NCBI GenBank assembly: GCA_965214905.1 | Contig: OZ243984.1 | Location: forward strand, 3,504,628 to 3,568,627 | Length of the DNA stretch: 64,000 nt | DNA from: an uncultured Candidatus Binatia bacterium | GTDB lineage: Bacteria > Desulfobacterota > Binatia > UBA9968 > JAJDTQ01 | Direction of reading: 5' to 3' | Shown here: piece after piece, positions 8,630-28,427 of the stretch | How positions within the stretch are numbered: the stretch's first letter is position 1 | Layout of the letters: each line of letters opens with the position of its first letter | Notes under the pieces: generated by a model | What the model saw: only the letters and a program-made list of their open reading frames with translations | What the model was told of the DNA's origin: nothing | Databases searched by the model: none | Made by a program: the position numbers and the translations under genes

Positions 8630-8896
8630 CTAGTGACGCGCCCCGATCCTCTCATCAAACACGAGGCGATTTCGCATTCCCAGGATTTCCTGCCAAGGGA
8701 CTCCCGGCGCTTGTGTTCGAGAAGATTCGGTTACTTGAGCTGCTGCTTCGCCAGTAATCTCAATGTCTTTGACCAACGACAGAAGCAGTTGGCGGTCGGT
8801 CTCCAAGTCACCTCGTGCTCGATCACGGGCAAACAACACGGCCTCACGGGGGGCGTCGAGCATATGGCGCAGGCGGATTACGTTATCCTTGAACAT
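8630..8896 (-). CDS. HepT-like (DUF86) toxin, apparently truncated or degenerate
   Basis: ...VPWQEILGMRNRLVFDERIGARH* stops where HepT proteins normally continue (Rx4HxY then ...VW). The catalytic H and Y positions read F and E. It overlaps the MntA gene by 14 bp. Confidence 0.55.
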   Translation of the reverse strand: MFKDNVIRLRHMLDAPREAVLFARDRARGDLETDRQLLLSLVKDIEITGEAAAQVTESSRTQAPGVPWQEILGMRNRLVFDERIGARH

Positions 8897-9188
8897 ATTG
8901 CACTTCCGCCGCGTCCAGCACTTCTTGCCGGAAATAGTGGCTCAGGTCCTCGATCGTTCGCAGATCGACCTTGCGTCCCGAGAACAGGTCGAACAACTCC
9001 ATCTCCATGCCGGCAACGCCCAGTAGCCCAGGAATCCGGTTCGGCTCGAACTCGACGAGTACGTCTATATCGCTCTCAGGTCCAAAGTTCTCGCGCAACG
9101 CCGAGCCAAAGACGGCAAGGCGCTTGATCCCATGCTCTTGGCAGAATGCGGCAAGCGCGTCCTTAGCGATCGATACCTGTGGATTCAT
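8883..9188 (-). CDS. MntA-type nucleotidyltransferase antitoxin
   Basis: LAVFGSALRENFGPESDIDVLVEF is the minimal NTase GS..DxD motif. Confidence 0.8.
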   Translation of the reverse strand: MNPQVSIAKDALAAFCQEHGIKRLAVFGSALRENFGPESDIDVLVEFEPNRIPGLLGVAGMEMELFDLFSGRKVDLRTIEDLSHYFRQEVLDAAEVQYVQG

Positions 9189-9224
9189 TGCTCGTGATCC
9201 TCCATTTCGGCAGAATTCCCCATC

Positions 9225-9509
9225 CTAGCCAAAAATCTCGCACTTCAGTTCTTCGTAGACCGTCATTCCAGGTTTGATGAGCGGGGCCAGGGTGTTGCGC
9301 ATGAATGCTTTCGCGTCGTTTCCACATTTCGTAAGGCCTGGAATTTGTTTGCTCGCAAGGTAAATCTCGCCACTGGCTGGCTTCAGGTCGTCGGGGGCAG
9401 CATCGGTTCTACCGGCAAGTGGTTTTCTCTTCTTCTTCAGGAGGTCTTCAAGCTTGTCTGCCTTACCAACCGACTCGGCGAGCGCCGTTAGGACCTCGTC
9501 GCAGAACAA
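9225..9509 (-). CDS. Hypothetical small protein. It may be a frameshifted C-terminal continuation of the upstream ATPase/Toprim gene.
   Basis: It begins 21 bp inside the end of the 9488-10798 ORF, in another frame. No motif was recognised. Confidence 0.3.
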   Translation of the reverse strand: MFCDEVLTALAESVGKADKLEDLLKKKRKPLAGRTDAAPDDLKPASGEIYLASKQIPGLTKCGNDAKAFMRNTLAPLIKPGMTVYEELKCEIFG

Positions 9510-10798
9510 GTATTATAAGACTCCAGATTACGCCTTGACAAGACCCGAACTCCGCCTTGCATCATATCGGCGACCTGTTGGTCGGATTGGTCATCACGGT
9601 CAATAAGTCTCACAACCTCCGAACCTTTGATTAACAAGCCGATGGCGTACGCTATCCCACGGCTGTCATTGGCTACACCTGATGCGTTGCCTCCGGGGAC
9701 GAATTGAGTTTCCGGGAACTTGTCTTGGAAAATAACTTCATAAGAAGGTGCATCATGGGCGTAGTTCTGTCCAGCGTTCTTGTTCTTCGGCTCGCCTTCA
9801 CAGATGACTACTCGTTCCGGCGCGACCAGCGTGGCCAAGTCGTCAAGCGCTACATCATGAGCTCTGTTCCAGAACACTCGATCGGGAGTCACGGGCTCAA
9901 TGACCTGTGGCTCATCAAAGTCGAGCTCATCGAAGTCAAGAAATACAACACTTCCAGGGTGCTCGGATTCAATGTCCCGAGCCCGGCGCATCATGCCAAT
10001 GGAGTGAGTCGCCAGCATCAATTGGCAATTTTCCGGAATTAGGCCGTAGAGCACAGACAGAAGTTCGGCCTGAAGAGGAGCGTTCAGGTGGGATTCGGGC
10101 TCGTCGATGCAAAACAGCGTGTCGTCGTAAGCCCGTCGCGCGACAATCAGATCAAGTATCAGGTCGACCGCAGCCTTTTCGCCCCCGGATAGGTTCTTGA
10201 ACGAGAAGCCGTTGCTCGTTCCTTTCGTGAATCGAAAGGTCCCATCCCCCAGCGGATTCCCGAGACTATCGAGCTCAACGTCGGAGAACAGCTTGGAGAA
10301 AGCTGTCCTTATATCTCCAATGACCAACTCTCGGAATTCGTTCAAAGTCACCAAGCCGTCTTCGGGGGCGAATATATCCTCAAGCGCTTGGCTGGCCAGT
10401 CGCTGAAAGTTTTTGGCTACAGCTCCATCGTTGTCGATCATGCGCGGAACTCGAATATCGTCCAATGGATCGCCAACTCGCTGAAGGTTCTGAATCTGGA
10501 ACCCTGGATCGTTCCTGTATGCTGATCTTACAAAGAGGGTCTTCTTTGGAGTTGGGGTAGGGATAGGATTGTGGAAATCTGTTTGGACATCATTACGCAA
10601 TCGGTCGCGAAATGGTGATCCGGTTTTGGCGTGATAATCCATTTCCCACGTTCGGTGTCTTTGGGACGTCCAGTTATGCCATGTATGAAGAGCATCAAGA
10701 AAGGATGACTTGCCGCATCCATTGGGTCCGGCGAGCATGATAAGGCGTGCCGTTTCCGGGATGCCTTGAATGGTCAGATGGGTGATTGCCTCATGCAC
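9488..10798 (-). CDS. OLD-family (overcoming lysogenization defect) ABC-type ATPase with a C-terminal Toprim-like domain. It is a PARIS/Gabija-GajA/DUF4276-like defence nuclease candidate.
   Basis: Walker A (LAGPNGCGKSSFLDAL), Walker B with downstream H (LFCIDEPESHLN...LMLATHS), and a C-terminal VVICEGEP...RLIDRDDQSD (Toprim E and DxD). The start is uncertain: GTG at 10798 is possible, but the ORF runs in-frame into the hsdS remnant. GC is lower, about 50%. Confidence 0.65.
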   Translation of the reverse strand: MHEAITHLTIQGIPETARLIMLAGPNGCGKSSFLDALHTWHNWTSQRHRTWEMDYHAKTGSPFRDRLRNDVQTDFHNPIPTPTPKKTLFVRSAYRNDPGFQIQNLQRVGDPLDDIRVPRMIDNDGAVAKNFQRLASQALEDIFAPEDGLVTLNEFRELVIGDIRTAFSKLFSDVELDSLGNPLGDGTFRFTKGTSNGFSFKNLSGGEKAAVDLILDLIVARRAYDDTLFCIDEPESHLNAPLQAELLSVLYGLIPENCQLMLATHSIGMMRRARDIESEHPGSVVFLDFDELDFDEPQVIEPVTPDRVFWNRAHDVALDDLATLVAPERVVICEGEPKNKNAGQNYAHDAPSYEVIFQDKFPETQFVPGGNASGVANDSRGIAYAIGLLIKGSEVVRLIDRDDQSDQQVADMMQGGVRVLSRRNLESYNTCSATRS

Positions 10799-11264
10799 AG
10801 GCCAAAGGACGCCAGCAAACTGGCGCTGTTCATCCAACGCGAAGTCGGGCGTTTCGAAGTCGCGTATGTGTGCCCATGAGGTCCTTGGATGCTGGACGCC
10901 AGTGGTTCCCGCTACGGCATAATCGAGGAAGGCAGGAGAATGCACGACTGTAACCAGGAAACGCGGGTCAATGCCTGCCTTCGCGCGCAGTACGAGCAAC
11001 TCCGTCGTACAGACGCCCGCCTCGTCAGCAAGGATCGCTTTTGTCGAGATAGGGACGGAGCTTTCCGTACAGCACGTCACCTGGTTGGAACGCGGACGCG
11101 GCGCTCCGCATGTCCGACGCTCGCCCGCCACCCGCGCGCGCAAGCCGCCCCGGAGCAAGATGTTCAAGGCCAAGGTAGAGAGAGTCCGGCCGCGCGCCCG
11201 GCTTGACCGGCTCCGCGATGAGATTGCACAGGTCCGAAAGGCGAGTGGCCTTACCATTCGTCAT
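10799..11264 (-). pseudogene. hsdS: Type I restriction-modification specificity subunit (HsdS) remnant. It has the N-terminal TRD plus the central conserved region, is frameshifted, and lacks the second TRD.
   Basis: Frame A (11264-11025) reads LSDLCNLIAEP...GDVLYGKLRPYLDKS. Frame B continues as ISTKAILADEAGVCTTELLVLRAK...LDEQRQFAGVLWPV. Both are HsdS hallmarks. Confidence 0.6.
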
Positions 11265-11287
11265 GCCATTACGCAGCCTTTGGCGTA

Positions 11288-11707
11288 CTATAACCGTTTG
11301 GTTCTGCTCAATCTTGAAATCGTCCGTGCCCGCAGTCCCTTGAGCCGTACCGCAGGCAGCCTTTTGAGCGTCTGGCTGCCCGGATCCACCTCTATGCCGA
11401 CCGACTCCAAAGCCGTTACACCCAGCAGCGGCTCGGTGTCCGCGTCTCCAAATAGGATGGTGGCCCCTACGAACTCCCCCATGAACTCTACCTGGGCGAC
11501 CGTGATGTCCATTCGGAGTTCACTACCGTCGGCAAGTTCGTAGACTCGCTGTCCTTTAGGCGCAAGGCCTATGGATTCCAGGCATTGCCTTGGCACGAGG
11601 CAATCGGTCGCGCCTGTGTCAACCAGGAACAGCCCTTCCCAAGTCCTGTCCGGCTCGGCCGGGTTGCGAATCAGAGCGGTCACGTGTGTTGCGCCCATTT
11701 CCGTCAC
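11288..11707 (-). CDS. Retropepsin-like (clan AA) aspartyl protease family protein
   Basis: [13 protein letters not shown] active-site motif, ...[15 protein letters not shown], and about 139 aa. This matches bacterial retropepsin-like proteases. Confidence 0.7.
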
Positions 11708-21226: not shown

Positions 21227-24200
21227 TTACGCCCAGAATCTTGCGTAGCCCCAACCGAGGGCTCCGAGCCCCACCACCGCGCCGAAGATCCACTGCCAGT
21301 AGGGCTCCAGCACCAGCTTTCCCTCGATCTGCTGCTTGAGAGCGTCACGTTCAGCCGCCGCCACGGTCACCTGCCGGGTGAGTTCCTGTTTGTCTGCACC
21401 CAGGGCTGTTACCGCCTGTTCTTTTTCTGCGCGGGTCTGTTCGAGTGAGCGGGTGGTTTCATCGAGCTGTTGCTGCAGTCGAGCGGCAGTCTGGTCGTGG
21501 GCGGCAGCGAGGGAGGCGAGTTTTTCTGCGGCCTCCCGTTCCTTGGCGGCGAGGTCGGCTGCGGCCTGTTCTTTTTCTGCGCGGGTCTGTTCGAGTGAGC
21601 GGGTGGTTTCATCGAGCTGTTGCTGCAGTCGAGCGGCGGTCTGGTCGTGGGCGGCGGCGAGGGAGGCGAGTTTTTCTGCGGCCTCCCGTTCCTTGGCGGC
21701 GAGGTCGGCTGCGGCCTGTTCTTTTTCTGCGCGGGTCTGTTCGAGTGAGCGGGTGGTTTCATCGAGCTGTTGCTGCAGTCGAGCGGCGGTCTGGTCGTGG
21801 GCGGCGGCGAGGGAGGCGAGTTTTTCTGCGGCCTCCCGTTCCTTGGCGGCGAGGTCGGCTGCGGCCTGATCCTTTTCTGCGCGAGTTAGTTCGAGCGCAC
21901 GGGTGGTTTCATCGAGCTGTTGCTGCAGTCGAGCGGCGGTCTGGTCGTGGGCGGCGGCGAGGGAGGCGAGTTTTTCTGCGGCCTCCCGTTCTTTGGCGGC
22001 GAGGTCGGCTGTAGCCTGATCCTTTTCTGCGCGAGTTAGTTCGAGTGAGCGGGTGGTTTCATCGAGCTGTTGCTGCAGTCGAGCGGCGGTCTGGTCGTGG
22101 GCGGCGGCGAGGGAGGCGAGTTTTTCTGCGGCCTCCCGTTCTTTGGCGGCGAGGTCGGCTGTAGCCTGTTCTTTTTCGATCCGGTTTTGTTCAAGTGAGC
22201 GGGCTACCTCGGCCAAGCGCTTTTCAAGCTGTTCTATGGCGTTTTGATGCGCGGACGCCAGCGTGGCCATTTGCAATGCCAACTGTTGTTTGTCCGCGGT
22301 CAACGCGCCCATCGCCCGTTGTCGCTCGGCCTCCGTCTTCTCCAGGGAACGTTCCGTTTCGGCGAGTTGCTGCTCGAGTCGACGCCTGGCTGCATCGTCG
22401 GCAGGGTCTTGCGCCGCCATCTCCTGTTTGAGGGCGGCCAGTTCGGCCTGAGCCTGTGCCTTTTCGGTCCGGGCCTTCTCCAGTGATGTTGTGGTTTGAT
22501 CCAGTTGTTGTCGTAACTGTTGGACGGCCTGTTCATGGCCGGCCGTCAACTCCGTCAACTGTTGCGTGAGGTCCCGTTGGTCCGCGGTCAGGCCAGCGAG
22601 TGCCAGTTCCTTTTCGACCCGTGTCTGTGCCAGAGAACGTGTGGTCTGATCCAGTCGTTGCTGTAACTGTTGGACGGCCCGTTCATGGGCGGCCGTCAAC
22701 TCCGTCAACTGTTGCGTGAGATCCCGTTGACTGGCGGTGAGGGCAGCGAGTTCCTGGTCCTTTTGCGTCCGGACCTGTTCCAGAGAACCCGTGGCTTGCG
22801 CCAGTTGTTGCTGTAGCTGTTGGACGGCCTGCTCATGGGCAGCAGTGAGGGACGTGAGGCTTTGTGTGGTTTGTTTTTCCTTGGCGGCCAAGTCGTCCAG
22901 CGCATTTACGTTCTCGGCGCGGGATTGTTCGAGGGCGCGCGTGGTTTGGTCGAGTTGTTGCTGTAGCTGTTGGACGGCCTGATCATGGGCGGCGTTGAGA
23001 GACGCAATTTTTTGCACGGCCTCCTGTTCTTTGGCGGCGAGGTCGTCCAGGGTTTTTTCGTTTTCGGCGCGGGATTGTTCGAGGGAGCGGGTGGTTTGGC
23101 CGAGTTGTTGCTGTAGCTGTTGGACGGCCTGATCATGGGCGGCAGTGAGAGATGCGATTTTTTGAGCGGCGGCCTGTTCTTTGGCGGCGAGGTCGTCCAG
23201 GGTTTTTACGTTTTCGGCGCGGGACTGTTCGAGGGAGCGGGCGGTTTGGCCGAGTTGCTGCTGTAGCTGTTGGACGGCCTGATCATGGGCGGCAGTGAGA
23301 GATGCGATTTTTTGAGCGGCGGCCTGTTCTTTGGCGGCGAGGTCGTCCCGGGTTTTTACGTTTTCGGCGCGGGACTGTTCGAGGGAGCGGGTGGTTTGGC
23401 CGAGTTGTCGCTGTAGCTGTTGAACGGCCTGATCATGGGCGGCAGTGAGGGAGGCAATTTTTTGAGCGGCGGCCTGCTCTTTGGCGGCGAGGTCGTCCCG
23501 GGTTTTTTCATTTTCGGCGCGAGACTGTTCGAGGGAGCGGGTGGTTTGGCCGAGTTGCTGCCGTAGCTGTTGGACGGCCTGGTCGTGGGCGGCGTTGAGG
23601 GAGGCGACCTTCCGGGCGGCTTCCTCCTCCCCGGCGGCGAGGTCGTCCAGGGTTTTTTCGTTTTCGGCGCGGGATTGTTCGAGGGAGCGCGTCACCTGTG
23701 ACAACTGCTGCTCCAGTCGAGCCAGAGACGTTTTCTGGGTAGCGACTTCGGCCTCCAGGGACTGCCTGAGTGCGTTCAGCCGGTCGGTTTCGGTGCTCAT
23801 CTCTGTGATGGCACGGTCCTGCTGTGCGACCTGGGCAGCCAGCCCTTCCACTTGTGCGCTCAGTTCGTCCCGCTTGCGCACGAGTGCGGCGAAGTCGTCC
23901 TCCAGCGCGGTCTTGGCCGTGGTCAGAAGCGCGTTCTGCTGCACCAGAGAATCTCTCAGACTGGCCAGCTCCCGAGTCCTCGCGTTCAAGTCCAGCACGG
24001 TGGACGTTCTCTGGTCGAGCTGTACGGTGAGTTCATCGACGGTTCCGAGCGTGCTGTCCCTCTCGGCCGTCAAAGCGGCGACTCTCCGCCGGTACCGGTC
24101 CGCCGTGCGGCGTCCCTCGTCAATGACAGCGCTCATTTCCTGTCCGACCTGGGCCAGGGACGCCGTCAACTGGTTGATCTGCCGTTGGGCGTCCGCGAGC

Positions 24201-24445
24201 TCCCGCCCCCTCGACTCGATCAACTCCTCGGATCGGTTTGCGTCTTGCGTAAGCTGATCGACTCTGGCTTCGAGCGCGGTGACCTCCTGGCCTCGTTGCC
24301 GGAGGTCTTGCGTGAGGGCGGCGTTTGCCGCCTCGACGCTTTGCTTTTCGCGGTTCAGTTGCTCATGTTCTTCGACCGAGACGCATGAGGCGAGGGACAC
24401 GAATAGTGCGCCCAGAAGGCAAAGGGTTTTGGTGTGGTGCATCAT
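21227..24445 (-). CDS. Giant coiled-coil repeat protein (about 1070 aa). It has an N-terminal lipoprotein signal (…LFVSLASC) and a C-terminal hydrophobic anchor (…YWQWIFGAVVGLGALGWGYARFWA).
   Basis: The start MMHHTKTLCLLGALFVSLASC carries the lipobox LASC. The central roughly 750 aa are 50-aa heptad-rich repeats (…AAKEREAAEKLASLAAAHDQTAARLQQQLDETTRSLEQTRAEKEQAAADL…). Confidence 0.8.
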   Translation of the reverse strand: MMHHTKTLCLLGALFVSLASCVSVEEHEQLNREKQSVEAANAALTQDLRQRGQEVTALEARVDQLTQDANRSEELIESRGRELADAQRQINQLTASLAQVGQEMSAVIDEGRRTADRYRRRVAALTAERDSTLGTVDELTVQLDQRTSTVLDLNARTRELASLRDSLVQQNALLTTAKTALEDDFAALVRKRDELSAQVEGLAAQVAQQDRAITEMSTETDRLNALRQSLEAEVATQKTSLARLEQQLSQVTRSLEQSRAENEKTLDDLAAGEEEAARKVASLNAAHDQAVQQLRQQLGQTTRSLEQSRAENEKTRDDLAAKEQAAAQKIASLTAAHDQAVQQLQRQLGQTTRSLEQSRAENVKTRDDLAAKEQAAAQKIASLTAAHDQAVQQLQQQLGQTARSLEQSRAENVKTLDDLAAKEQAAAQKIASLTAAHDQAVQQLQQQLGQTTRSLEQSRAENEKTLDDLAAKEQEAVQKIASLNAAHDQAVQQLQQQLDQTTRALEQSRAENVNALDDLAAKEKQTTQSLTSLTAAHEQAVQQLQQQLAQATGSLEQVRTQKDQELAALTASQRDLTQQLTELTAAHERAVQQLQQRLDQTTRSLAQTRVEKELALAGLTADQRDLTQQLTELTAGHEQAVQQLRQQLDQTTTSLEKARTEKAQAQAELAALKQEMAAQDPADDAARRRLEQQLAETERSLEKTEAERQRAMGALTADKQQLALQMATLASAHQNAIEQLEKRLAEVARSLEQNRIEKEQATADLAAKEREAAEKLASLAAAHDQTAARLQQQLDETTRSLELTRAEKDQATADLAAKEREAAEKLASLAAAHDQTAARLQQQLDETTRALELTRAEKDQAAADLAAKEREAAEKLASLAAAHDQTAARLQQQLDETTRSLEQTRAEKEQAAADLAAKEREAAEKLASLAAAHDQTAARLQQQLDETTRSLEQTRAEKEQAAADLAAKEREAAEKLASLAAAHDQTAARLQQQLDETTRSLEQTRAEKEQAVTALGADKQELTRQVTVAAAERDALKQQIEGKLVLEPYWQWIFGAVVGLGALGWGYARFWA
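21380..23700. repeat. Tandem array of about 15 copies of a 150-bp unit inside the coiled-coil gene. Several copies are identical (for example 21481-21630, 21631-21780 and 21781-21930).
   Basis: Seen directly. Lines 21541-21600 and 21691-21750 are identical, and the period is 150 bp, which equals 50 aa. Confidence 0.85.
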
Positions 24446-24651
24446 ACCGTTGGTTCCGTTTATGGGCGGTTTCGCGACGCATGTAGTGGCGCGCGCCGCA
24501 AACACGCCGATGTTACAAAGTGTCAAGTACCTAGCAGACTTGGGCGGCAACAAGCAACGCCAGAACGTCCAACGACCTGTTTCCACACGGCGGGAGCGGG
24601 TCGGAAGCCCCCTCGCGCGGGCGTTCCGCGTGACCGGCCAGGACCTTCCCA

Positions 24652-25827
24652 TTAGATGACCTGTCGGCCGCGTAGCTCTTCGATGGCGCCCGGGGCGTAC
24701 CCCAGGGCTTGCAGGATTTCGTCGGTATTCTCACCGAGCATCGGCGGAGGCGTCGGAGTCTCCGGCGGCGTGCGGCTCATGTTGACGCCGCTGCCCACCA
24801 GCTTCACCTTCCCCATCGTCGGGTGCTCCACTTCGATGGGGAAGCCGTACTGCCGCACCTGCGGATCGTTGAACACGTCCTCGAGGTTGTTCAACGGGGT
24901 GGAGGGCACGTCGTGCTCTTCAAGCTTGCGCAGCCACACGTCGCGCGAGTCCCGGCCAAAGATGACCTGCAGTTCCTCTTCCAGCAGGTCGTGGTTGTCG
25001 GTGCGGCCCTTCTTGTCCGCGAATCGTGCATCTTCGGCCCATTCAGGCCTCCCGACGACTTCCAGCAGGCCGAGCCAGAACTTGGTGGGCGAGGAAAGGT
25101 GTACCACGAAGGGTTTGCCGTCCCGGTCGACGAATGCAAAGACGCCGGCGGTGCGGGTGCGGTCGGCCCGGCCGGGCACCACGCCGGTCTCGAAGAAACG
25201 GGCGCAGTTCTCCGCGGTGAACGACACCGACGCCCGCAGCAGGGACGTTTCGATGATCTGTCCCTCTCCGGTCATCATCCGGTTCACCAGCGCCGCCAGC
25301 ACGCCGTAGCACGCGTAGACCCCGGTGAGGTGGTCGGACAGGGATATGCCCATGCCCTTGGGTTGGTCGGGATCGGTGAGCAGGCTCAGCAACCCGCTCA
25401 TTCCCTGGCCCACGGTATCGAAGCCGGGCCGGTCACGATACGGTCCTTCCTGGCCGAAGCCGGAGATGGAGCAGTAGATGATCCTGGGGTTCAACGGGCG
25501 AATCGAGTGGTAATCCAGGCCCCGGCGGGCCATGACGCCCGGGCGGTGGTTCTCGATCAGCACGTCGGCCTCGGCCGCCAGCCGGCGGCAGATGTCCCGG
25601 CCCTCCTCGCTGCGGATGTCCAGGGTGATGCTCTTCTTGTTCCGGTTCAGGCTGCAGAAGGTGGCCGAATAGAGTCGCTCGCCCCAGCCCCGGAACGGAT
25701 CGCCGTGTTCCCGTTCCTCGACCTTGATGACTTCGGCGCCGAGGTCGGCCATGAGCATGGAAGCGAACGGGCCGGTGACGTAGCTGGCCAGCTCCAGGAT
25801 CCTTATGCCTTCGAGTGTTCCCGCCAT
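24652..25827 (-). CDS. CoA transferase, family III (CaiB/BaiF-like)
   Basis: The N-terminus LEGIRILELASYVTGPFASMLMADLGAEVIKVE is the family III CoA-transferase signature. Confidence 0.9.
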   Translation of the reverse strand: MAGTLEGIRILELASYVTGPFASMLMADLGAEVIKVEEREHGDPFRGWGERLYSATFCSLNRNKKSITLDIRSEEGRDICRRLAAEADVLIENHRPGVMARRGLDYHSIRPLNPRIIYCSISGFGQEGPYRDRPGFDTVGQGMSGLLSLLTDPDQPKGMGISLSDHLTGVYACYGVLAALVNRMMTGEGQIIETSLLRASVSFTAENCARFFETGVVPGRADRTRTAGVFAFVDRDGKPFVVHLSSPTKFWLGLLEVVGRPEWAEDARFADKKGRTDNHDLLEEELQVIFGRDSRDVWLRKLEEHDVPSTPLNNLEDVFNDPQVRQYGFPIEVEHPTMGKVKLVGSGVNMSRTPPETPTPPPMLGENTDEILQALGYAPGAIEELRGRQVI

Positions 25828-25831
25828 GGTG

Positions 25832-28060
25832 TCAAGCCTCGATGCGGATGTCCCAAAGGTCTTCCTCGCCGCCGAGTTCCGGGCAGTAGACGTCCACCTG
25901 GAGCAGCGTGGCGCAGCCGGGACAGATGTATTCGTGGTACCGTCCCAGATAGGGCTCACCGGAGGCCGGCCGCTGGCCGCCGATCTCGTCCAGCTCGACG
26001 ACGCGTTTGAGACAGCGCTTCTTGTAGTTTTCGTCGGGACCGCCGAAAACGAAGCCGCAGCGCATGCAGTGGATCCGCTTTCCGCTGCCGTTGCGGACCA
26101 CCTCGAGGGTCTCGTGGATCCGCGCCACCGGCTGCCGTTCGGCGGTGTCGCCGTTCGAGGCCGGGTCCGCGGTCACCGGCGTGGCCTGCTCGAACCGGGC
26201 CTGCCGTATGGCTCGGCGCCGTGCGTCGGTTTCGGCTTCGTCGACCGTGGCGCCCTCGCCGCGCAGGACCACGCCGTAGACCCGCCGCGCGGTTTCTTCC
26301 GTGGACACGCCCACACGGACGTCCCGCGCCACCGCCGCCGGGTCCCGGTCCAGCGGATCGCCGTAGCCGCCGCCGCTCTGGACGTAGTCGCTCAGGACCG
26401 TGAACTCGGGCAGCGATACGCGCCCCGGGGCGCCTTCCGGCACCAACACCTTGCCCCAGCCGTCGCCTTCGATCTCGTCCAGCCGGGCGGGGTAGTGGCC
26501 GTCCGCCAATCGCTTCTCGATGTCGCCGTCGGTCAGGAAGATGGCCCGGATGCCGCCGGGCCCCGCGGGATGCCCGCCGAAGAGTCCGTAGGCGCCCTGG
26601 GGTATCCAGCCGTAGGGCTTGAAGTCCGTGGAGAAGTCCTGCGAGCCGTAGACCATGAAGATCCGGTAGGTGCCGACCCCGCCGCGGTACTTGCCGAAGC
26701 CGGAGCCGTCGGTGTTGTGGTTGCGCGAGAAATAGAGCAGCGGGTACTGCATCTCGGTGCGCTCGACGTCGCTGATGCCCCCGGACGGGATGTTCATGTG
26801 GCCGCCGGTGTTGACGCCGTCCCGCAAGGGGCTGGCCCCGAGTCCGCTGCCGTGGATGTCGTAGATGCCCATGGCGGTGCGGACCCCTTCACGATTGTGG
26901 CCGGCGGGTATGTAGCCGGGACCGCCTTCGTACCAGGTGGCGTACCAGGTCGCGGGAACGTCCTGGGACCGCCCGGCGGCGAACAGCATCTTGCCGGCGG
27001 CCTCGCACACCGCCGCCACCAGGATGCCGCCCACCACCGGGGCGGCGGCGCAGGCCGCGGGGAAGCGGCAGTTCAACACCGACCCTTCCGGGACCACGAG
27101 ATCGATGGGGGCGAACTTGCCGTCGCTCCAGGGGACGTCCCAGAAGAGCGTGTTGGTGATGGCGACGCCGATCAGCGCCCGGGTGCTGGGGAAGGTCGAG
27201 TTGACGTCGCTGGTGGTCTGGGGGCTGGTGCCGGTGGTGTCCAGCGTCAGATGATCCCCCTTTTTCGTCAGCGTGCACATGATCCGGAGCGGTGCGGCCT
27301 TGCGGCTCCTGGTGTCCAGAAACGTCAGGTAGGTGCGTCCGGTCCAGGTGCCGTCCGGCAGGGATCGGAGCTTGGCGCGGGCCGCCGCCTCGGTGTCGCT
27401 GATGATCCGGGCGCCCGCGGCCTGGACGAACTCCAGGCCGAACTTGTCCACCAGGCCGAGATAGCGCCGGGCGCATACGTTATTGCCGGCGATCATGGCC
27501 TTGAGGTCCAGCCCCACGTACTGCGGGTCCCGGCACTGCTCGGTCAGGGACTTGAACACGTCCTCGCGGAAGATGTCGCGTTCCACCACCTTGAGGCCCA
27601 TGATCCGGATGCCCTCATGGAAGATCTCGGTGGCGGCGCCGCGCAGGTTGCCGCCGGTGTCCGCGGTATGGGTGCTGGTGGCCACCCAGCCGATGAGCCC
27701 GCCGTCGTGGAAGATCGGCTTGATCACCATCATGTCGTAGGTGTGCGCTCCCGCCACGTAAGGATCGTTGAAGAAGAACTGGTCGCCGTCGAAGAACCCC
27801 GGCGATTCTCCAAAGCAGTCGATGAGGTTCTTGATGGCGTCCGACGTGGCATGGGCGAAGCGCAGGTGCCCGGAGCAGGCCAGCACCATGGTGCCGGCGG
27901 CGTCGTAGAACGAGCTCATGCACTCTCCGCCCTGGGCGACGATGGGGGAGGCGGTGACGCGCTGCAGCGTCATCCGGCCTTCCTCGCCGATGGCCCAGAG
28001 ACGGTGCAGGAACATCTCGTAGCGGATGGGATCGATTTCGCAGGTATCGTGGGGGTTCAT
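25832..28060 (-). CDS. Hydantoinase B / oxoprolinase family protein (HyuB-like) with a C-terminal Cys4 zinc-ribbon extension (acetone-carboxylase-gamma-like)
   Basis: HyuB-like body (...DPYVAGAHTYDMMV...GGGYGDPLDRDPAAV...), then about 150 aa with CMRCG...CPGC. The start MNPHDTCEIDP has a GAGAAAGGG RBS. Confidence 0.75.
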   Translation of the reverse strand: MNPHDTCEIDPIRYEMFLHRLWAIGEEGRMTLQRVTASPIVAQGGECMSSFYDAAGTMVLACSGHLRFAHATSDAIKNLIDCFGESPGFFDGDQFFFNDPYVAGAHTYDMMVIKPIFHDGGLIGWVATSTHTADTGGNLRGAATEIFHEGIRIMGLKVVERDIFREDVFKSLTEQCRDPQYVGLDLKAMIAGNNVCARRYLGLVDKFGLEFVQAAGARIISDTEAAARAKLRSLPDGTWTGRTYLTFLDTRSRKAAPLRIMCTLTKKGDHLTLDTTGTSPQTTSDVNSTFPSTRALIGVAITNTLFWDVPWSDGKFAPIDLVVPEGSVLNCRFPAACAAAPVVGGILVAAVCEAAGKMLFAAGRSQDVPATWYATWYEGGPGYIPAGHNREGVRTAMGIYDIHGSGLGASPLRDGVNTGGHMNIPSGGISDVERTEMQYPLLYFSRNHNTDGSGFGKYRGGVGTYRIFMVYGSQDFSTDFKPYGWIPQGAYGLFGGHPAGPGGIRAIFLTDGDIEKRLADGHYPARLDEIEGDGWGKVLVPEGAPGRVSLPEFTVLSDYVQSGGGYGDPLDRDPAAVARDVRVGVSTEETARRVYGVVLRGEGATVDEAETDARRRAIRQARFEQATPVTADPASNGDTAERQPVARIHETLEVVRNGSGKRIHCMRCGFVFGGPDENYKKRCLKRVVELDEIGGQRPASGEPYLGRYHEYICPGCATLLQVDVYCPELGGEEDLWDIRIEA

Positions 28061-28427
28061 GGCCTGCCCTTTCTCTCGAATTCGACAGAGGACACTAACA
28101 ACTTTGGCAGGCCGGGTCCACATTGACTCGCCGGCGGCATTGTGTGAGGTTCGCGTTCATGGTCATGTTCGCGGCTTGGGTGCTGTTCGCCTGGGGCGCC
28201 CTGGCGGCCGGGTACGGCGCCTACGCGGCGGCGGCGGCGGCGGCTTCTCAGAGCACCTATCACGCGACGCAGGCGGGGGCCGCGTTGCTGATCGCCACCG
28301 TGTCCGTCAGCGCCGGCTTTCTCGTGTTGGTGGTCGGTCGTATCGGACGCGTTCTGCGGCCTCCGGCGGGCGTGGCGGAGGAAGAAAGCGGCGAACGCCG
28401 CACCCCGTAAATACCTGCGCCTGGCTC

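What the first reader, a model, noticed from the sequence alone, without database searches (positions are those of the whole stretch)
21227..24445. Roughly 1070-aa periplasm-spanning (?) coiled-coil protein built from about 15 near-identical 150-bp tandem repeats, with a lipobox N-terminus and a TM C-terminus
The N-terminus has a lipoprotein signal (LASC). The C-terminus has a 20-residue hydrophobic anchor after roughly 1000 residues of uninterrupted heptad-like repeats. An alpha-helical coiled coil of that length would be about 150 nm if fully extended. Having both ends membrane-anchored suggests a tether or ruler between two membranes or envelope layers, or a surface fibre. Several DNA repeat units are 100% identical. 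That points to recent expansion and to copy-number (length) variation by recombination. Assembly collapse or expansion is also possible.
Basis: seen in the sequence. Interest (0 to 1): 0.6.

Follow-up and report, generated by a model that had tools for sequence, protein, structure and literature searches.

The report
Length-variable coiled-coil envelope lipoprotein of Binatia
This is a real gene, found only in a small group of uncultured soil bacteria (Binatia), for a very long rod-shaped protein with a lipid anchor at one end and a membrane helix at the other; its length changes several-fold between close relatives, so it is more likely a loose envelope tether or strut than a fixed ruler.

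Summary
Window 21227-24445 (minus strand) encodes a 1072-aa protein. It has a canonical lipobox (LASC, Cys21), about 1020 residues of coiled-coil-periodic helix, and a 20-residue Gly/Trp-rich C-terminal hydrophobic helix with a short basic tail.

Two corrections. There are 14 full 150-bp units plus one degenerate 138-bp unit, in two near-identical sub-arrays (84-97% and 91-100%) plus four diverged units. Only one pair of units is 100% identical.

Eleven syntenic orthologues exist, all in Candidatus Binatia: nine single-contig MAG chromosomes, one metagenome contig and one partial contig. The complete orthologues keep the lipobox, and all keep an almost invariant C-terminal helix. Their lengths range from 456 to 1730 aa (1 to 27 units). 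Inner units are homogenised within each genome. An assembly artefact is therefore excluded, and rapid change in length is shown.

No relatives were found elsewhere in 1.84 billion protein representatives, and none in phage collections. The two membrane signals match the topology of phage unimolecular spanins (outer-membrane lipid anchor plus inner-membrane helix), but this is a chromosomal gene among metabolic genes.

Best reading (confidence about 0.4): a slack, hinged tether between inner and outer membrane, or a periplasmic strut. A strict ruler is disfavoured because length is not conserved and even the shortest rod (about 60 nm) exceeds a normal periplasm.

The parts
21227..24445 (-). Complete CDS, 1072 aa plus stop at 21227-21229.
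   Evidence: ORF list and translation. The start is fixed by orthologue conservation. dN/dS is 0.2-0.5 for the N-terminal region and 0.12-0.5 for the C-terminal region against orthologues.
24383..24445 (-). Lipoprotein signal peptide, aa 1-21: MMHHTKTLCLLGALFVSLAS-C. The lipobox is LASC and Cys21 is the acylated residue. The mature N-terminus is C-V-S-V-E-E-H.
   Evidence: PS51257-type rule met in 11 of 11 proteins, with K/R within the first 7 residues. The Cys is conserved in all complete orthologues.
23651..24382 (-). Non-repeat N-terminal coiled-coil arm, aa 22-265, with canonical heptad periodicity.
   Evidence: Hydrophobic period 3.51. 55-90% identical to orthologues, dN/dS 0.19-0.48. Predicted helical from residue 24 in a low-confidence AF2 model.
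22451..23650 (-). Repeat block A: eight 150-bp (50-aa) units, aa 266-665. The first five are 80-97% identical in DNA. The last three are diverged.
   Evidence: TRF, unit table and identity matrix, repeat HMM scores of 74-89 bits per unit.
22313..22450 (-). Degenerate 46-aa central unit, aa 666-711. It holds the only Pro of the rod (AAQDPADD) and is the probable hinge between two arms.
   Evidence: The QDP motif is conserved in L001-L005. The same place is Pro-rich in L006 and has PP in L007. The AF2 helix breaks at 679-683.
21413..22312 (-). Repeat block B: six 150-bp units, aa 712-1011. The first is diverged. The last five are 91-100% identical. Units 21563-21712 and 21713-21862 are identical.
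   Evidence: TRF array 21414-22203 at 95% matches; identity matrix.
21302..21412 (-). Non-repeat C-terminal coil, aa 1012-1048, ending in the conserved ...ERDALKQQIEGKLVLEP.
   Evidence: Alignment A2; the invariant columns include E44, K46, L47, V48 and E50.
21242..21301 (-). C-terminal hydrophobic glycine-zipper helix, aa 1049-1068: YWQWIFGAVVGLGALGWGYA.
   Evidence: It is identical or nearly so in orthologues that are only 41-47% identical overall.
21230..21241 (-). Short basic/aromatic tail RFWA (RFRA, RWFRA or RFRRSA in orthologues). Inferred to be cytoplasmic by the positive-inside rule.
24521..24560 (-). Conserved 40-nt upstream block (GCGTTGCTTGTTGCCGCCCAAGTCTG.TAGGTA), about 80-115 nt before the start. 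It is a probable promoter or operator of its own. The gap to the upstream CoA-transferase gene is 207 nt.
   Evidence: Alignment of 10 upstream regions. The simple sigma-70 scan found nothing, so the promoter type is unresolved.

Best explanation
The gene encodes a lineage-specific cell-envelope protein of a Binatia clade.

Inferred from the sequence signals:
- The precursor is exported by Sec and cleaved by signal peptidase II before Cys21, which is lipidated.
- The rest is a two-armed alpha-helical coiled-coil rod. One arm is the N-terminal arm plus block A. A Pro-containing hinge follows. The other arm is block B.
- The protein ends in a highly conserved glycine-zipper transmembrane helix. 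This helix stops transfer in the inner membrane and leaves a 4-7-residue basic tail in the cytoplasm.

Membrane assignment: there is no Asp at +2 or other known retention signal. [quoted passage not shown] That gives the topology proven possible by phage unimolecular spanins: outer-membrane lipid anchor plus inner-membrane helix. The protein would then physically link the two membranes.

Geometry: the rod is 60-250 nm long, far longer than a normal periplasm, and its length is not conserved. I therefore propose that it lies obliquely or folded at its hinge as a slack tether or strut. Such a tether would become load-bearing only when the membranes separate, for example during plasmolysis or desiccation. 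It would not act as a spacer that sets the intermembrane distance.

Length evolution (shown): rod length changes quickly by unequal recombination among 150-bp units, which preserves the helical phase.

Inferred only: lipidation, which membrane holds which end, oligomeric state and function.
For: - Lipobox and conserved Cys in 11 of 11 proteins; a single C-terminal hydrophobic helix with a basic tail; no other hydrophobic segment.
- Coiled-coil periodicity of 3.51 and 3.57 over about 1020 residues, with long continuous helices in the low-confidence AF2 model.
- The coil starts 2-3 residues after the Cys, as in Lpp (the Lpp comparison is from general knowledge).
- u-spanins show that an outer-membrane lipoprotein signal plus a C-terminal TMD yields a protein spanning both membranes (PMC6139136).
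- The C-terminal helix is invariant across orthologues that are 41-47% identical overall, while the signal peptide varies. This suggests a specific membrane-embedded interaction.
- A conserved central hinge.
- The gene sits at one conserved chromosomal locus in 9 complete genomes and 1 metagenome contig, under purifying selection.
- Lengths of 456-1730 aa with lineage-specific unit expansion. Independent 14-aa and 63-aa duplications occur elsewhere in the rod.
- Lpp itself is confined to some Gammaproteobacteria, so other diderm lineages plausibly have their own coiled-coil lipoproteins (bioRxiv 10.1101/2021.05.31.446380).
- The repeat gives a direction-specific hit to the salt/osmotic-stress protein family sll1863.
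Against: - There is no experimental or omics evidence of expression, lipidation or localisation.
- The diderm status and Lol system of these Binatia were not checked here. No envelope genes occur in the 64-kb window.
- Outer-membrane sorting rules are known only for a few Proteobacteria.
- The C-terminal segment is only marginally hydrophobic on the Kyte-Doolittle scale (1.16). It could escape the inner membrane, as the hydrophobic C-terminus of Thermotoga Omp-alpha does.
- The rod is 2-8 times longer than a normal periplasm, so a simple perpendicular bridge is impossible.
- Neighbouring genes are metabolic and give no functional link.
- The AF2 model is low confidence (pLDDT 55) and monomeric.
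Confidence: 0.4

Rival explanations
1. In-plane inner-membrane scaffold. The lipoprotein is retained in the inner membrane, so both ends sit in the same membrane. The rod, a parallel or antiparallel oligomer, lies flat on the periplasmic face as a strut, corset or spacer between apposed membranes such as intracytoplasmic membrane stacks.
For: - A 60-250 nm rod fits only roughly parallel to the membrane.
- Length variation is easily tolerated in this geometry.
- Retention signals outside model Proteobacteria are unknown.
- The acidic +5/+6 residues (CVS.EEH) are strictly conserved and could be such a signal.
Against: - No Asp at +2 and no known retention motif.
- There is no precedent known to me for a lipoprotein that also carries a C-terminal TM helix and stays entirely in the inner membrane.
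- Nothing in the sequence indicates lateral polymerisation.
Confidence: 0.25
2. Size-variable surface fibre or stalk. The rod projects from the cell. It is anchored by one end, either the lipid in the outer membrane or the C-terminal helix in the outer membrane as in Omp-alpha. Repeat number varies under diversifying pressure from phage, predators or matrix thickness, as in streptococcal M proteins, mycoplasma Vsa lipoproteins or trimeric autotransporter stalks.
For: - Rapid copy-number change with nearly identical units is typical of surface proteins.
- The lengths fit extracellular fibres.
- The C-terminal segment is only marginally hydrophobic on the Kyte-Doolittle scale.
- Omp-alpha shows that a coiled coil with a hydrophobic C-terminus can reach the outer membrane (PMC3387000).
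Against: - No sorting motif: no LPXTG, and no hit to PEP-CTERM or other C-terminal sorting HMMs. The 'EP' before the helix is ET in L010.
- No beta-barrel, SLH or adhesin head domain.
- Repeat sequences are conserved rather than diversified between species (units are 80-90% identical across genomes). dN/dS is below 0.5.
Confidence: 0.12
3. Bulk stress protectant. The repeat is a multiplied sll1863-type domain. The protein acts through abundance and hydrophilic helices, LEA-like, protecting the membrane or periplasm in osmotic or desiccation stress. Geometry and exact length would be irrelevant.
For: - NF052504 sll1863_fam hit of 65 bits (cut-off 35), E 4e-18, 8 stretches.
- The hit is absent from the reversed and shuffled controls.
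- Sll1863 is among the most strongly salt-induced and most abundant proteins in Synechocystis (PMC8670252).
- Length tolerance fits.
Against: - Two units alone score 32 bits, below the cut-off.
- Exhaustive phmmer and a profile search find no cyanobacterial relatives.
- The function of sll1863 is itself unknown and its knock-out has no salt phenotype.
- This reading does not explain two conserved membrane anchors and an invariant TM helix.
Confidence: 0.08
4. Domesticated or cryptic phage spanin-like membrane-fusion or lysis protein.
For: The signal topology is the same as u-spanins. The two helical arms with a hinge recall lambda Rz CC1-linker-CC2 (PMC6139136).
Against: - No PHROG hit and no relative in 2.9 million viral contigs.
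- The locus is flanked by conserved metabolic genes in every genome, with no holin or endolysin.
- The protein is 4-13 times longer than typical u-spanins, which are predicted to be beta-rich.
Confidence: 0.03
5. Assembly artefact or non-functional repeat expansion: a collapsed or inflated array, or a pseudogene.
For: Three units are 98-100% identical, with a 212-bp exact run at period 150. The exact number of block-B units in this window could therefore be off by one or more if the assembly was made from short reads. Public short-read data contain only 58-221 aa fragments of the family.
Against: - The reading frame is intact over 3.2 kb.
- Ten complete orthologues have the same architecture. 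Nine are in single-contig 3.6-5.7 Mb chromosomes and carry arrays of up to 27 units.
- There is purifying selection.
Confidence: 0.02

Closest known systems
Unimolecular spanins (phage T1 gp11 type)
   Same: [quoted passage not shown] Between them is a periplasmic domain that links the inner and outer membranes. Neither has a periplasmic cysteine (PMC6139136).
   Different: - u-spanins are phage lysis-cassette genes that are short and predicted beta-rich.
- This is a chromosomal gene among metabolic genes, 456-1730 aa, all-alpha coiled coil, built of 50-aa repeats.
- It has no PHROG or viral relatives.
Thermotoga maritima Omp-alpha (OmpA1)
   Same: Both are long coiled-coil rods in the envelope of a diderm with a hydrophobic C-terminal anchor. 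Both act between the cell body and the outer layer (PMC3387000, PMC5082667).
   Different: - Omp-alpha is anchored at its N-terminus by an SLH domain, not by a lipid.
- Its rod is about 316 aa (about 50 nm), non-repetitive, and matches the intermembrane distance.
- Here there is no SLH domain and the length is unconstrained.
Braun's lipoprotein Lpp (and engineered longer Lpp variants)
   Same: Both are lipoproteins whose coiled coil starts right after the acylated Cys. Both are envelope coiled coils whose length matters mechanically (PMC5736177, PMC8824477, listed).
   Different: - Mature Lpp is 58 aa, trimeric, and linked to peptidoglycan through its C-terminal Lys.
- Lpp is restricted to some Gammaproteobacteria.
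- Here there is a C-terminal TM helix, no terminal Lys, a protein 8-30 times longer, and no Pfam LPP hit.
Size-variable repeat surface proteins (streptococcal M/Alp proteins, mycoplasma Vsa/Vlp lipoproteins)
   Same: Both have tandem, nearly identical in-frame repeats whose number changes by recombination. Vsa/Vlp also carry a lipoprotein N-terminus, and M proteins are coiled coils (general knowledge).
   Different: - Those proteins are in monoderm or wall-less pathogens. They are surface exposed and have LPXTG or no C-terminal anchor.
- Only a chance-level Pfam M-repeat hit was seen (E 1.1).
sll1863 family stress response protein (NCBIfam NF052504)
   Same: The 50-aa unit aligns to profile positions 33-84 of 93. 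The whole protein scores above the curated cut-off, and the hit depends on sequence direction.
   Different: - The sll1863 family model is a single domain of 93 profile positions, named for a cyanobacterial protein of unknown function.
- No pairwise-detectable homology was found.
- Lipobox, multi-repeat rod and TM helix are not known features of that family. I did not inspect its members.

Membership tests
Unimolecular spanin | N-terminal outer-membrane lipoprotein signal (lipobox plus Cys) | tested here: met
   LASC-Cys21; the rule is met in 11 of 11 proteins.
Unimolecular spanin | C-terminal transmembrane domain | tested here: met
   Y1049-A1068 is uncharged and followed by a basic tail.
Unimolecular spanin | Encoded in a phage lysis cassette next to a holin or endolysin | tested here: not met
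   The flanks are CoA-transferase, hydantoinase B, Amdase-like and TraB/GumN genes, syntenic in 9 chromosomes. No viral relatives and no PHROG hit.
Unimolecular spanin | Short periplasmic domain predicted to be mainly beta strands | tested here: not met
   About 1020 residues with helical coiled-coil periodicity. The AF2 model is almost all helix.
Unimolecular spanin | Disrupts the outer membrane and complements an Rz/Rz1 defect | not testable with these tools
   Requires a lysis complementation assay.
Braun lipoprotein Lpp | Small lipoprotein (about 58 aa mature) matching Pfam LPP | tested here: not met
   1072 aa; no LPP hit in Pfam at E<=1.
Braun lipoprotein Lpp | C-terminal Lys for covalent attachment to peptidoglycan | tested here: not met
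   The C-terminus is ...GYARFWA. Orthologues end in A, V or S.
Omp-alpha / OmpA1 of Thermotogae | N-terminal SLH domain | tested here: not met
   No SLH hit in Pfam or NCBIfam.
Omp-alpha / OmpA1 of Thermotogae | Long coiled-coil rod followed by a hydrophobic C-terminus | tested here: met
sll1863 family (NF052504) | Whole-protein score above the curated cut-off (35 bits) | tested here: inconclusive
   The score is 65.4 bits summed over 8 stretches. Two units alone give 32 bits. Reversed and shuffled controls give no hit. No relatives by phmmer or profile search.
PEP-CTERM / exosortase-type C-terminal sorting signal | PEP motif, TM helix and Arg-rich tail recognised by the TIGR02595-type HMM | tested here: not met
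   The motif is LEP (LET in L010). No sorting-signal HMM hit at E<=10 on the C-terminal 32-70 aa.
LPXTG sortase substrates (M-protein type) | LPXTG motif before the hydrophobic segment | tested here: not met
   The sequence before the helix is EGKLVLEPY.
Recombination-driven size-variable tandem-repeat proteins (a descriptive class) | In-frame, near-identical units whose number differs between close relatives at an orthologous locus | tested here: met
   Units are up to 100% identical. There are 1-27 units in syntenic orthologues. Inner units are homogenised within each genome.

The most novel reading that the evidence does not exclude
A cellular protein that natively uses the unimolecular-spanin topology. 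It would be a lipid-anchored, TM-anchored, hinged coiled-coil cable permanently joining the inner and outer membranes. Its length (60-250 nm) would be tuned by repeat recombination. This would be a new class of trans-envelope tether. It would imply either an unusually wide or compartmented periplasm in this Binatia clade, or a 'leash' that limits membrane separation during plasmolysis or desiccation.
Probability: 0.25. Interest if true: 0.75.

Novelty: new variant of a known kind. Interest (0 to 1): 0.5.

Why it matters
How diderm bacteria outside the Enterobacteria hold their two membranes together is largely unknown. The textbook coiled-coil lipoprotein Lpp exists only in part of the Gammaproteobacteria.

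This protein combines a lipid anchor, a very long coiled coil and a transmembrane helix. That combination is otherwise documented only for small phage lysis proteins.

Nature has also supplied a length series at one orthologous locus: 456 to 1730 aa, or about 60 to 250 nm. If cells of this clade can be imaged or the protein expressed heterologously, the series tests directly whether envelope geometry follows tether length.

It is also a clean example of concerted evolution of a coding tandem repeat, and a warning that such genes fragment in short-read metagenomes.

The limits are plain. The organisms are uncultured, there is no expression or localisation evidence, and the gene neighbourhood gives no functional link.

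Tried and rejected
1. Word-indexed homology search with the whole protein and with a 62-unit repeat profile: no hits.
2. Exhaustive phmmer against 1.84 billion representatives: 26 hits. The specific ones are short fragments of the same family, 58-221 aa at up to 82% identity. The longer weak hits that I inspected (P0009, P0011, P0013, P0016, P0018) are unrelated repeat coiled-coil proteins.
3. Pfam, PHROGs and PDB sequence searches: only generic coiled-coil noise (FAM184, SMC, designed helical proteins).
4. C-terminal sorting-signal idea (PEP-CTERM, glycine-zipper Pfam families, DUF883/ElaB-like tail anchors): no HMM hit. The Pro is not invariant.
5. AlphaFold2 on the single sequence: pLDDT 54.7. 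It is useful only for showing long continuous helices without a turn inside each 50-aa unit. I did not take it to a fold search.
6. Symmetric hairpin folded at the central hinge: rejected as a simple model, because the arm lengths are unequal in every orthologue (for example 659 versus 366 residues here).
7. Promoter typing: there is a conserved upstream block, but it shows no clean sigma-70, sigma-54 or sigma-E match by eye.
8. Operon or context inference: the neighbours are metabolic and the whole 64-kb window holds no envelope genes.
9. Exact-sequence look-ups of this protein, its longer ORF and a neighbour in public assemblies: not on record, so the source sample and read technology remain unknown.
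10. The longer ORF starting at 24652 was rejected as the true start.

Full report
**Observation**

The minus strand of window 21227-24445 carries an uninterrupted ORF. A longer version starts at an ATG at 24652 that overlaps the stop of the upstream CoA-transferase gene. It is not the real start. In ten complete orthologues the protein begins MM[YH]xxK. The sequence upstream is either closed by a stop within a few codons or is conserved only as DNA.

The product is 1072 aa. Its composition is 19% Ala, 14% Gln, 13% Leu and 10% Glu. It has two Cys (positions 9 and 21) and two Pro (681 and 1048).

Tandem Repeats Finder reports period-150 arrays with scores of 1384, 490 and 1271. At protein level there are fourteen exact 50-residue units (aa 266-665 and 712-1011). 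They are separated by one degenerate 46-residue unit.

- Units 266-466 are 80-97% identical in DNA.
- Units 762-962 are 91-100% identical.
- Units 516, 566, 616 and 712 are only 52-82% identical to anything else.
- Just one pair is 100% identical (21563-21712 and 21713-21862).
- The longest exact period-150 run is 212 bp.

**The two ends**

Residues 1-21 (MMHHTKTLCLLGALFVSLAS-C) satisfy a PROSITE PS51257-type lipobox rule. The same holds for all ten complete orthologues, and the Cys is invariant.

The last 24 residues are YWQWIFGAVVGLGALGWGYA followed by RFWA. This is the only other hydrophobic segment.
- It is marginal on the Kyte-Doolittle scale (1.16), because it is rich in Gly and Trp.
- It is favourable on the Wimley-White octanol scale (-6.4 kcal/mol; scale values entered from memory).
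- It is followed by a basic tail, as expected for a stop-transfer helix with a cytoplasmic C-terminus.

This segment and the preceding KLVLEP are identical in orthologues that share only 41-47% identity overall. The signal peptide varies freely. The helix therefore does more than provide a greasy anchor.

It matches none of the known C-terminal sorting or tail-anchor models (PEP-CTERM, glycine-zipper families, DUF883). The Pro before it is Thr in the metagenome orthologue L010.

**The rod**

Hydrophobic periodicity is 3.51 in the non-repeat N-terminal 244 residues. That is canonical heptads. It is 3.57 (= 50/14) in the repeats, equivalent to four heptads plus two hendecads per unit.

Across 62 non-redundant units from all orthologues, L4, A6, L18, H22, L29, L33, L40 and R44 are nearly invariant. 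His22 and Arg44 fall on the hydrophobic stripe. I cannot explain this.

A single-sequence AlphaFold2 model is of low confidence (pLDDT 54.7). It shows helices up to 172 residues long running through several units, so a unit is not a helix-turn-helix.

The degenerate central unit carries the only Pro of the rod, in AAQDPADD. This motif is conserved in six proteins. It is replaced by a Pro-rich stretch in L006 and by PP in L007. The rod thus has two arms and a hinge. The arms are never equal in length, so a simple symmetric hairpin is unlikely.

At 0.1485 nm per residue (textbook coiled-coil rise), the rod would be 152 nm here and 60-249 nm across the family.

**Relatives**

A scan of one genome per species (185,579 species) found nine loci. 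All are in Candidatus Binatia MAGs deposited as single 3.6-5.7 Mb chromosomes. A scan of JGI metagenomes with the C-terminal profile added one complete and one partial orthologue.

All lie in the same gene neighbourhood: hydantoinase B, CoA-transferase III, this gene, an Amdase-like gene and a TraB/GumN gene. The neighbours are 76-97% identical in protein.

The orthologues are 456, 467, 558, 582, 622, 822, 841, 1372, 1404 and 1730 aa long. They carry 1, 1, 3, 4, 5-6, 9, 8, 20, 17 and 27 clear units respectively.

The two closest genomes have neighbouring genes about 95% identical. They carry 622- and 822-aa versions against 1072 aa here.

Edge units (the first unit, the three before the hinge and the first after it) have their best DNA match in other genomes (84-93%). 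Inner units match their own-genome neighbours (95-100%) better than any foreign unit (about 80%). This is the classical signature of unequal crossing-over.

Other parts of the rod have expanded independently. There is a 14-aa repeat of about 14 copies in L001 and a 63-aa duplication in L008 and L009. Both are multiples of seven.

dN/dS is 0.19-0.48 for the N-terminal arm and 0.12-0.50 for the C-terminal region. The gene is therefore real and under purifying selection. The assembly-artefact alternative is excluded as an explanation of the architecture. The exact count of the three 98-100% identical units in this window still deserves long-read confirmation.

Outside this clade nothing was found:
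- No hits came from the word-indexed searches.
- Only short fragments of the same family turned up among 1.84 billion representatives. This is probably because short-read assemblies break in the repeats.
- There were no viral relatives and no PHROG hit.
- PDB hits were only to designed helical proteins.

**The one annotated similarity**

NCBIfam NF052504 (sll1863 family stress response protein) scores 65 bits, E 4e-18, over eight stretches. Two units alone give 32 bits, below the cut-off of 35.

As a control I scanned the reversed and a shuffled sequence. The reversed protein still hits SMC-type coiled-coil models but not sll1863_fam. The shuffled one hits nothing. The similarity is therefore not only composition or periodicity.

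Sll1863 is one of the most strongly salt-induced proteins of Synechocystis. It has no known function, and its knock-out has no salt phenotype (PMC8670252). I treat this as a lead, not a classification.

**Mechanism**

The pair of signals, a lipoprotein signal plus a C-terminal TM helix, defines phage unimolecular spanins. In those proteins the acylated N-terminus is in the outer membrane and the C-terminal helix is in the inner membrane, so one polypeptide connects both membranes (PMC6139136). This shows the topology is biologically attainable.

Here the mature N-terminus (CVS[ILV]EEH) has no Asp at +2. The coil starts almost at the Cys, as in Lpp. By default, then, the protein would bridge the envelope. 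This step is an inference, because sorting rules are unknown in this phylum.

A perpendicular spacer is disfavoured for two reasons:
- Even the shortest rod (about 60 nm) exceeds a usual periplasm.
- Length is the least conserved property of the protein. Bona fide coiled-coil spacers conserve length while their sequence drifts (PMC5082667). Omp-alpha of Thermotoga matches its 50-nm intermembrane gap (PMC3387000).

I therefore favour a slack, hinged tether or strut lying obliquely in the periplasm. It would possibly bear load only when the membranes separate (confidence about 0.4).

The rivals, with my confidence in each, are:
- an inner-membrane in-plane scaffold (0.25);
- a size-variable surface fibre (0.12);
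- a bulk sll1863-like stress protectant (0.08);
- a domesticated spanin (0.03);
- an artefact (0.02).

That the protein is a membrane-anchored, exported coiled-coil lipoprotein with rapidly evolving length I hold at about 0.8.

**Novelty and verdict**

No defining-feature test supports filing this under spanins, Lpp, Omp-alpha, PEP-CTERM or LPXTG proteins. It shares individual features with each.

It is best described as a new, clade-restricted variant of the known kind 'coiled-coil envelope tether or spacer'. It has an unprecedented anchor combination for a cellular protein and a natural fourfold length series.

Interest is moderate (0.5). The anatomy is striking and the comparative evidence is clean, but function rests on inference in uncultured organisms.

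Noticed in passing
window 8800-11300: A low-GC islet (0.53 against 0.63 overall). It holds a 589-aa AAA ATPase at 9488-11257(-), with Pfam AAA_21/AAA_15, PADLOC AriA/PtuA-like matches and an HsdS-like N-terminal stretch. It also holds a 101-aa ORF at 8883-9188(-) matching the PADLOC candidate PDC-S09. This is probably a small defence or toxin-antitoxin island.
   Followed up: partly
L001 8130-8720 (aa ~44-240 of the orthologue): A second, unrelated tandem repeat within the same protein family: the 14-aa unit LTQDLEQRGQQVSA, about 14 copies. It is present only in this genome. L008 and L009 instead carry a 63-aa duplication in the N-terminal arm. The rod has thus been lengthened independently in three ways, always by multiples that keep the helical phase.
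   Followed up: partly
window 22313-22450 (aa 666-711): The degenerate 46-aa unit with the conserved motif AAQDP[AEG][DE]D is the only helix breaker in about 1020 residues. Its position between the two repeat blocks is conserved in most orthologues.
   Followed up: yes
every 50-aa unit, e.g. window 22901-23650: His22 and Arg44 are nearly invariant in each unit, over 62 non-redundant units. Both sit on the hydrophobic stripe. This gives 14 to 27 regularly spaced polar core layers per molecule, of unexplained purpose.
   Followed up: no
window 24521-24560 (minus strand): A 40-nt block conserved in the upstream regions of the orthologues (GCGTTGCTTGTTGCCGCCCAAGTCTG.TAGGTA). It does not fit the simple sigma-70 scan.
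   Followed up: partly
window 21227-24445 versus its neighbours: The gene has GC3 of 0.68, while flanking genes have 0.79-0.92. The + strand shows a strong AT skew (-0.4) over the gene. This is a consequence of the Ala/Gln/Glu/Lys-rich repeat codons, or of different codon selection.
   Followed up: no
window 21336-22014 and 23481-24257 (+ strand): Long antisense and alternative-frame ORFs of 177-258 aa lie inside the repeat array. They are themselves repetitive (for example SAASRSLAARSAAACSFSARV...). They are by-products of the repeat and not genes, but an automatic caller could report them.
   Followed up: no
window 25832-28123 (minus strand): The hydantoinase B/oxoprolinase ORF carries a C-terminal stretch like the acetone carboxylase gamma subunit. 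It overlaps the start region assigned to the CoA-transferase ORF by about 130 nt, so the GTG start at 25959 of the latter is probably too far upstream.
   Followed up: no
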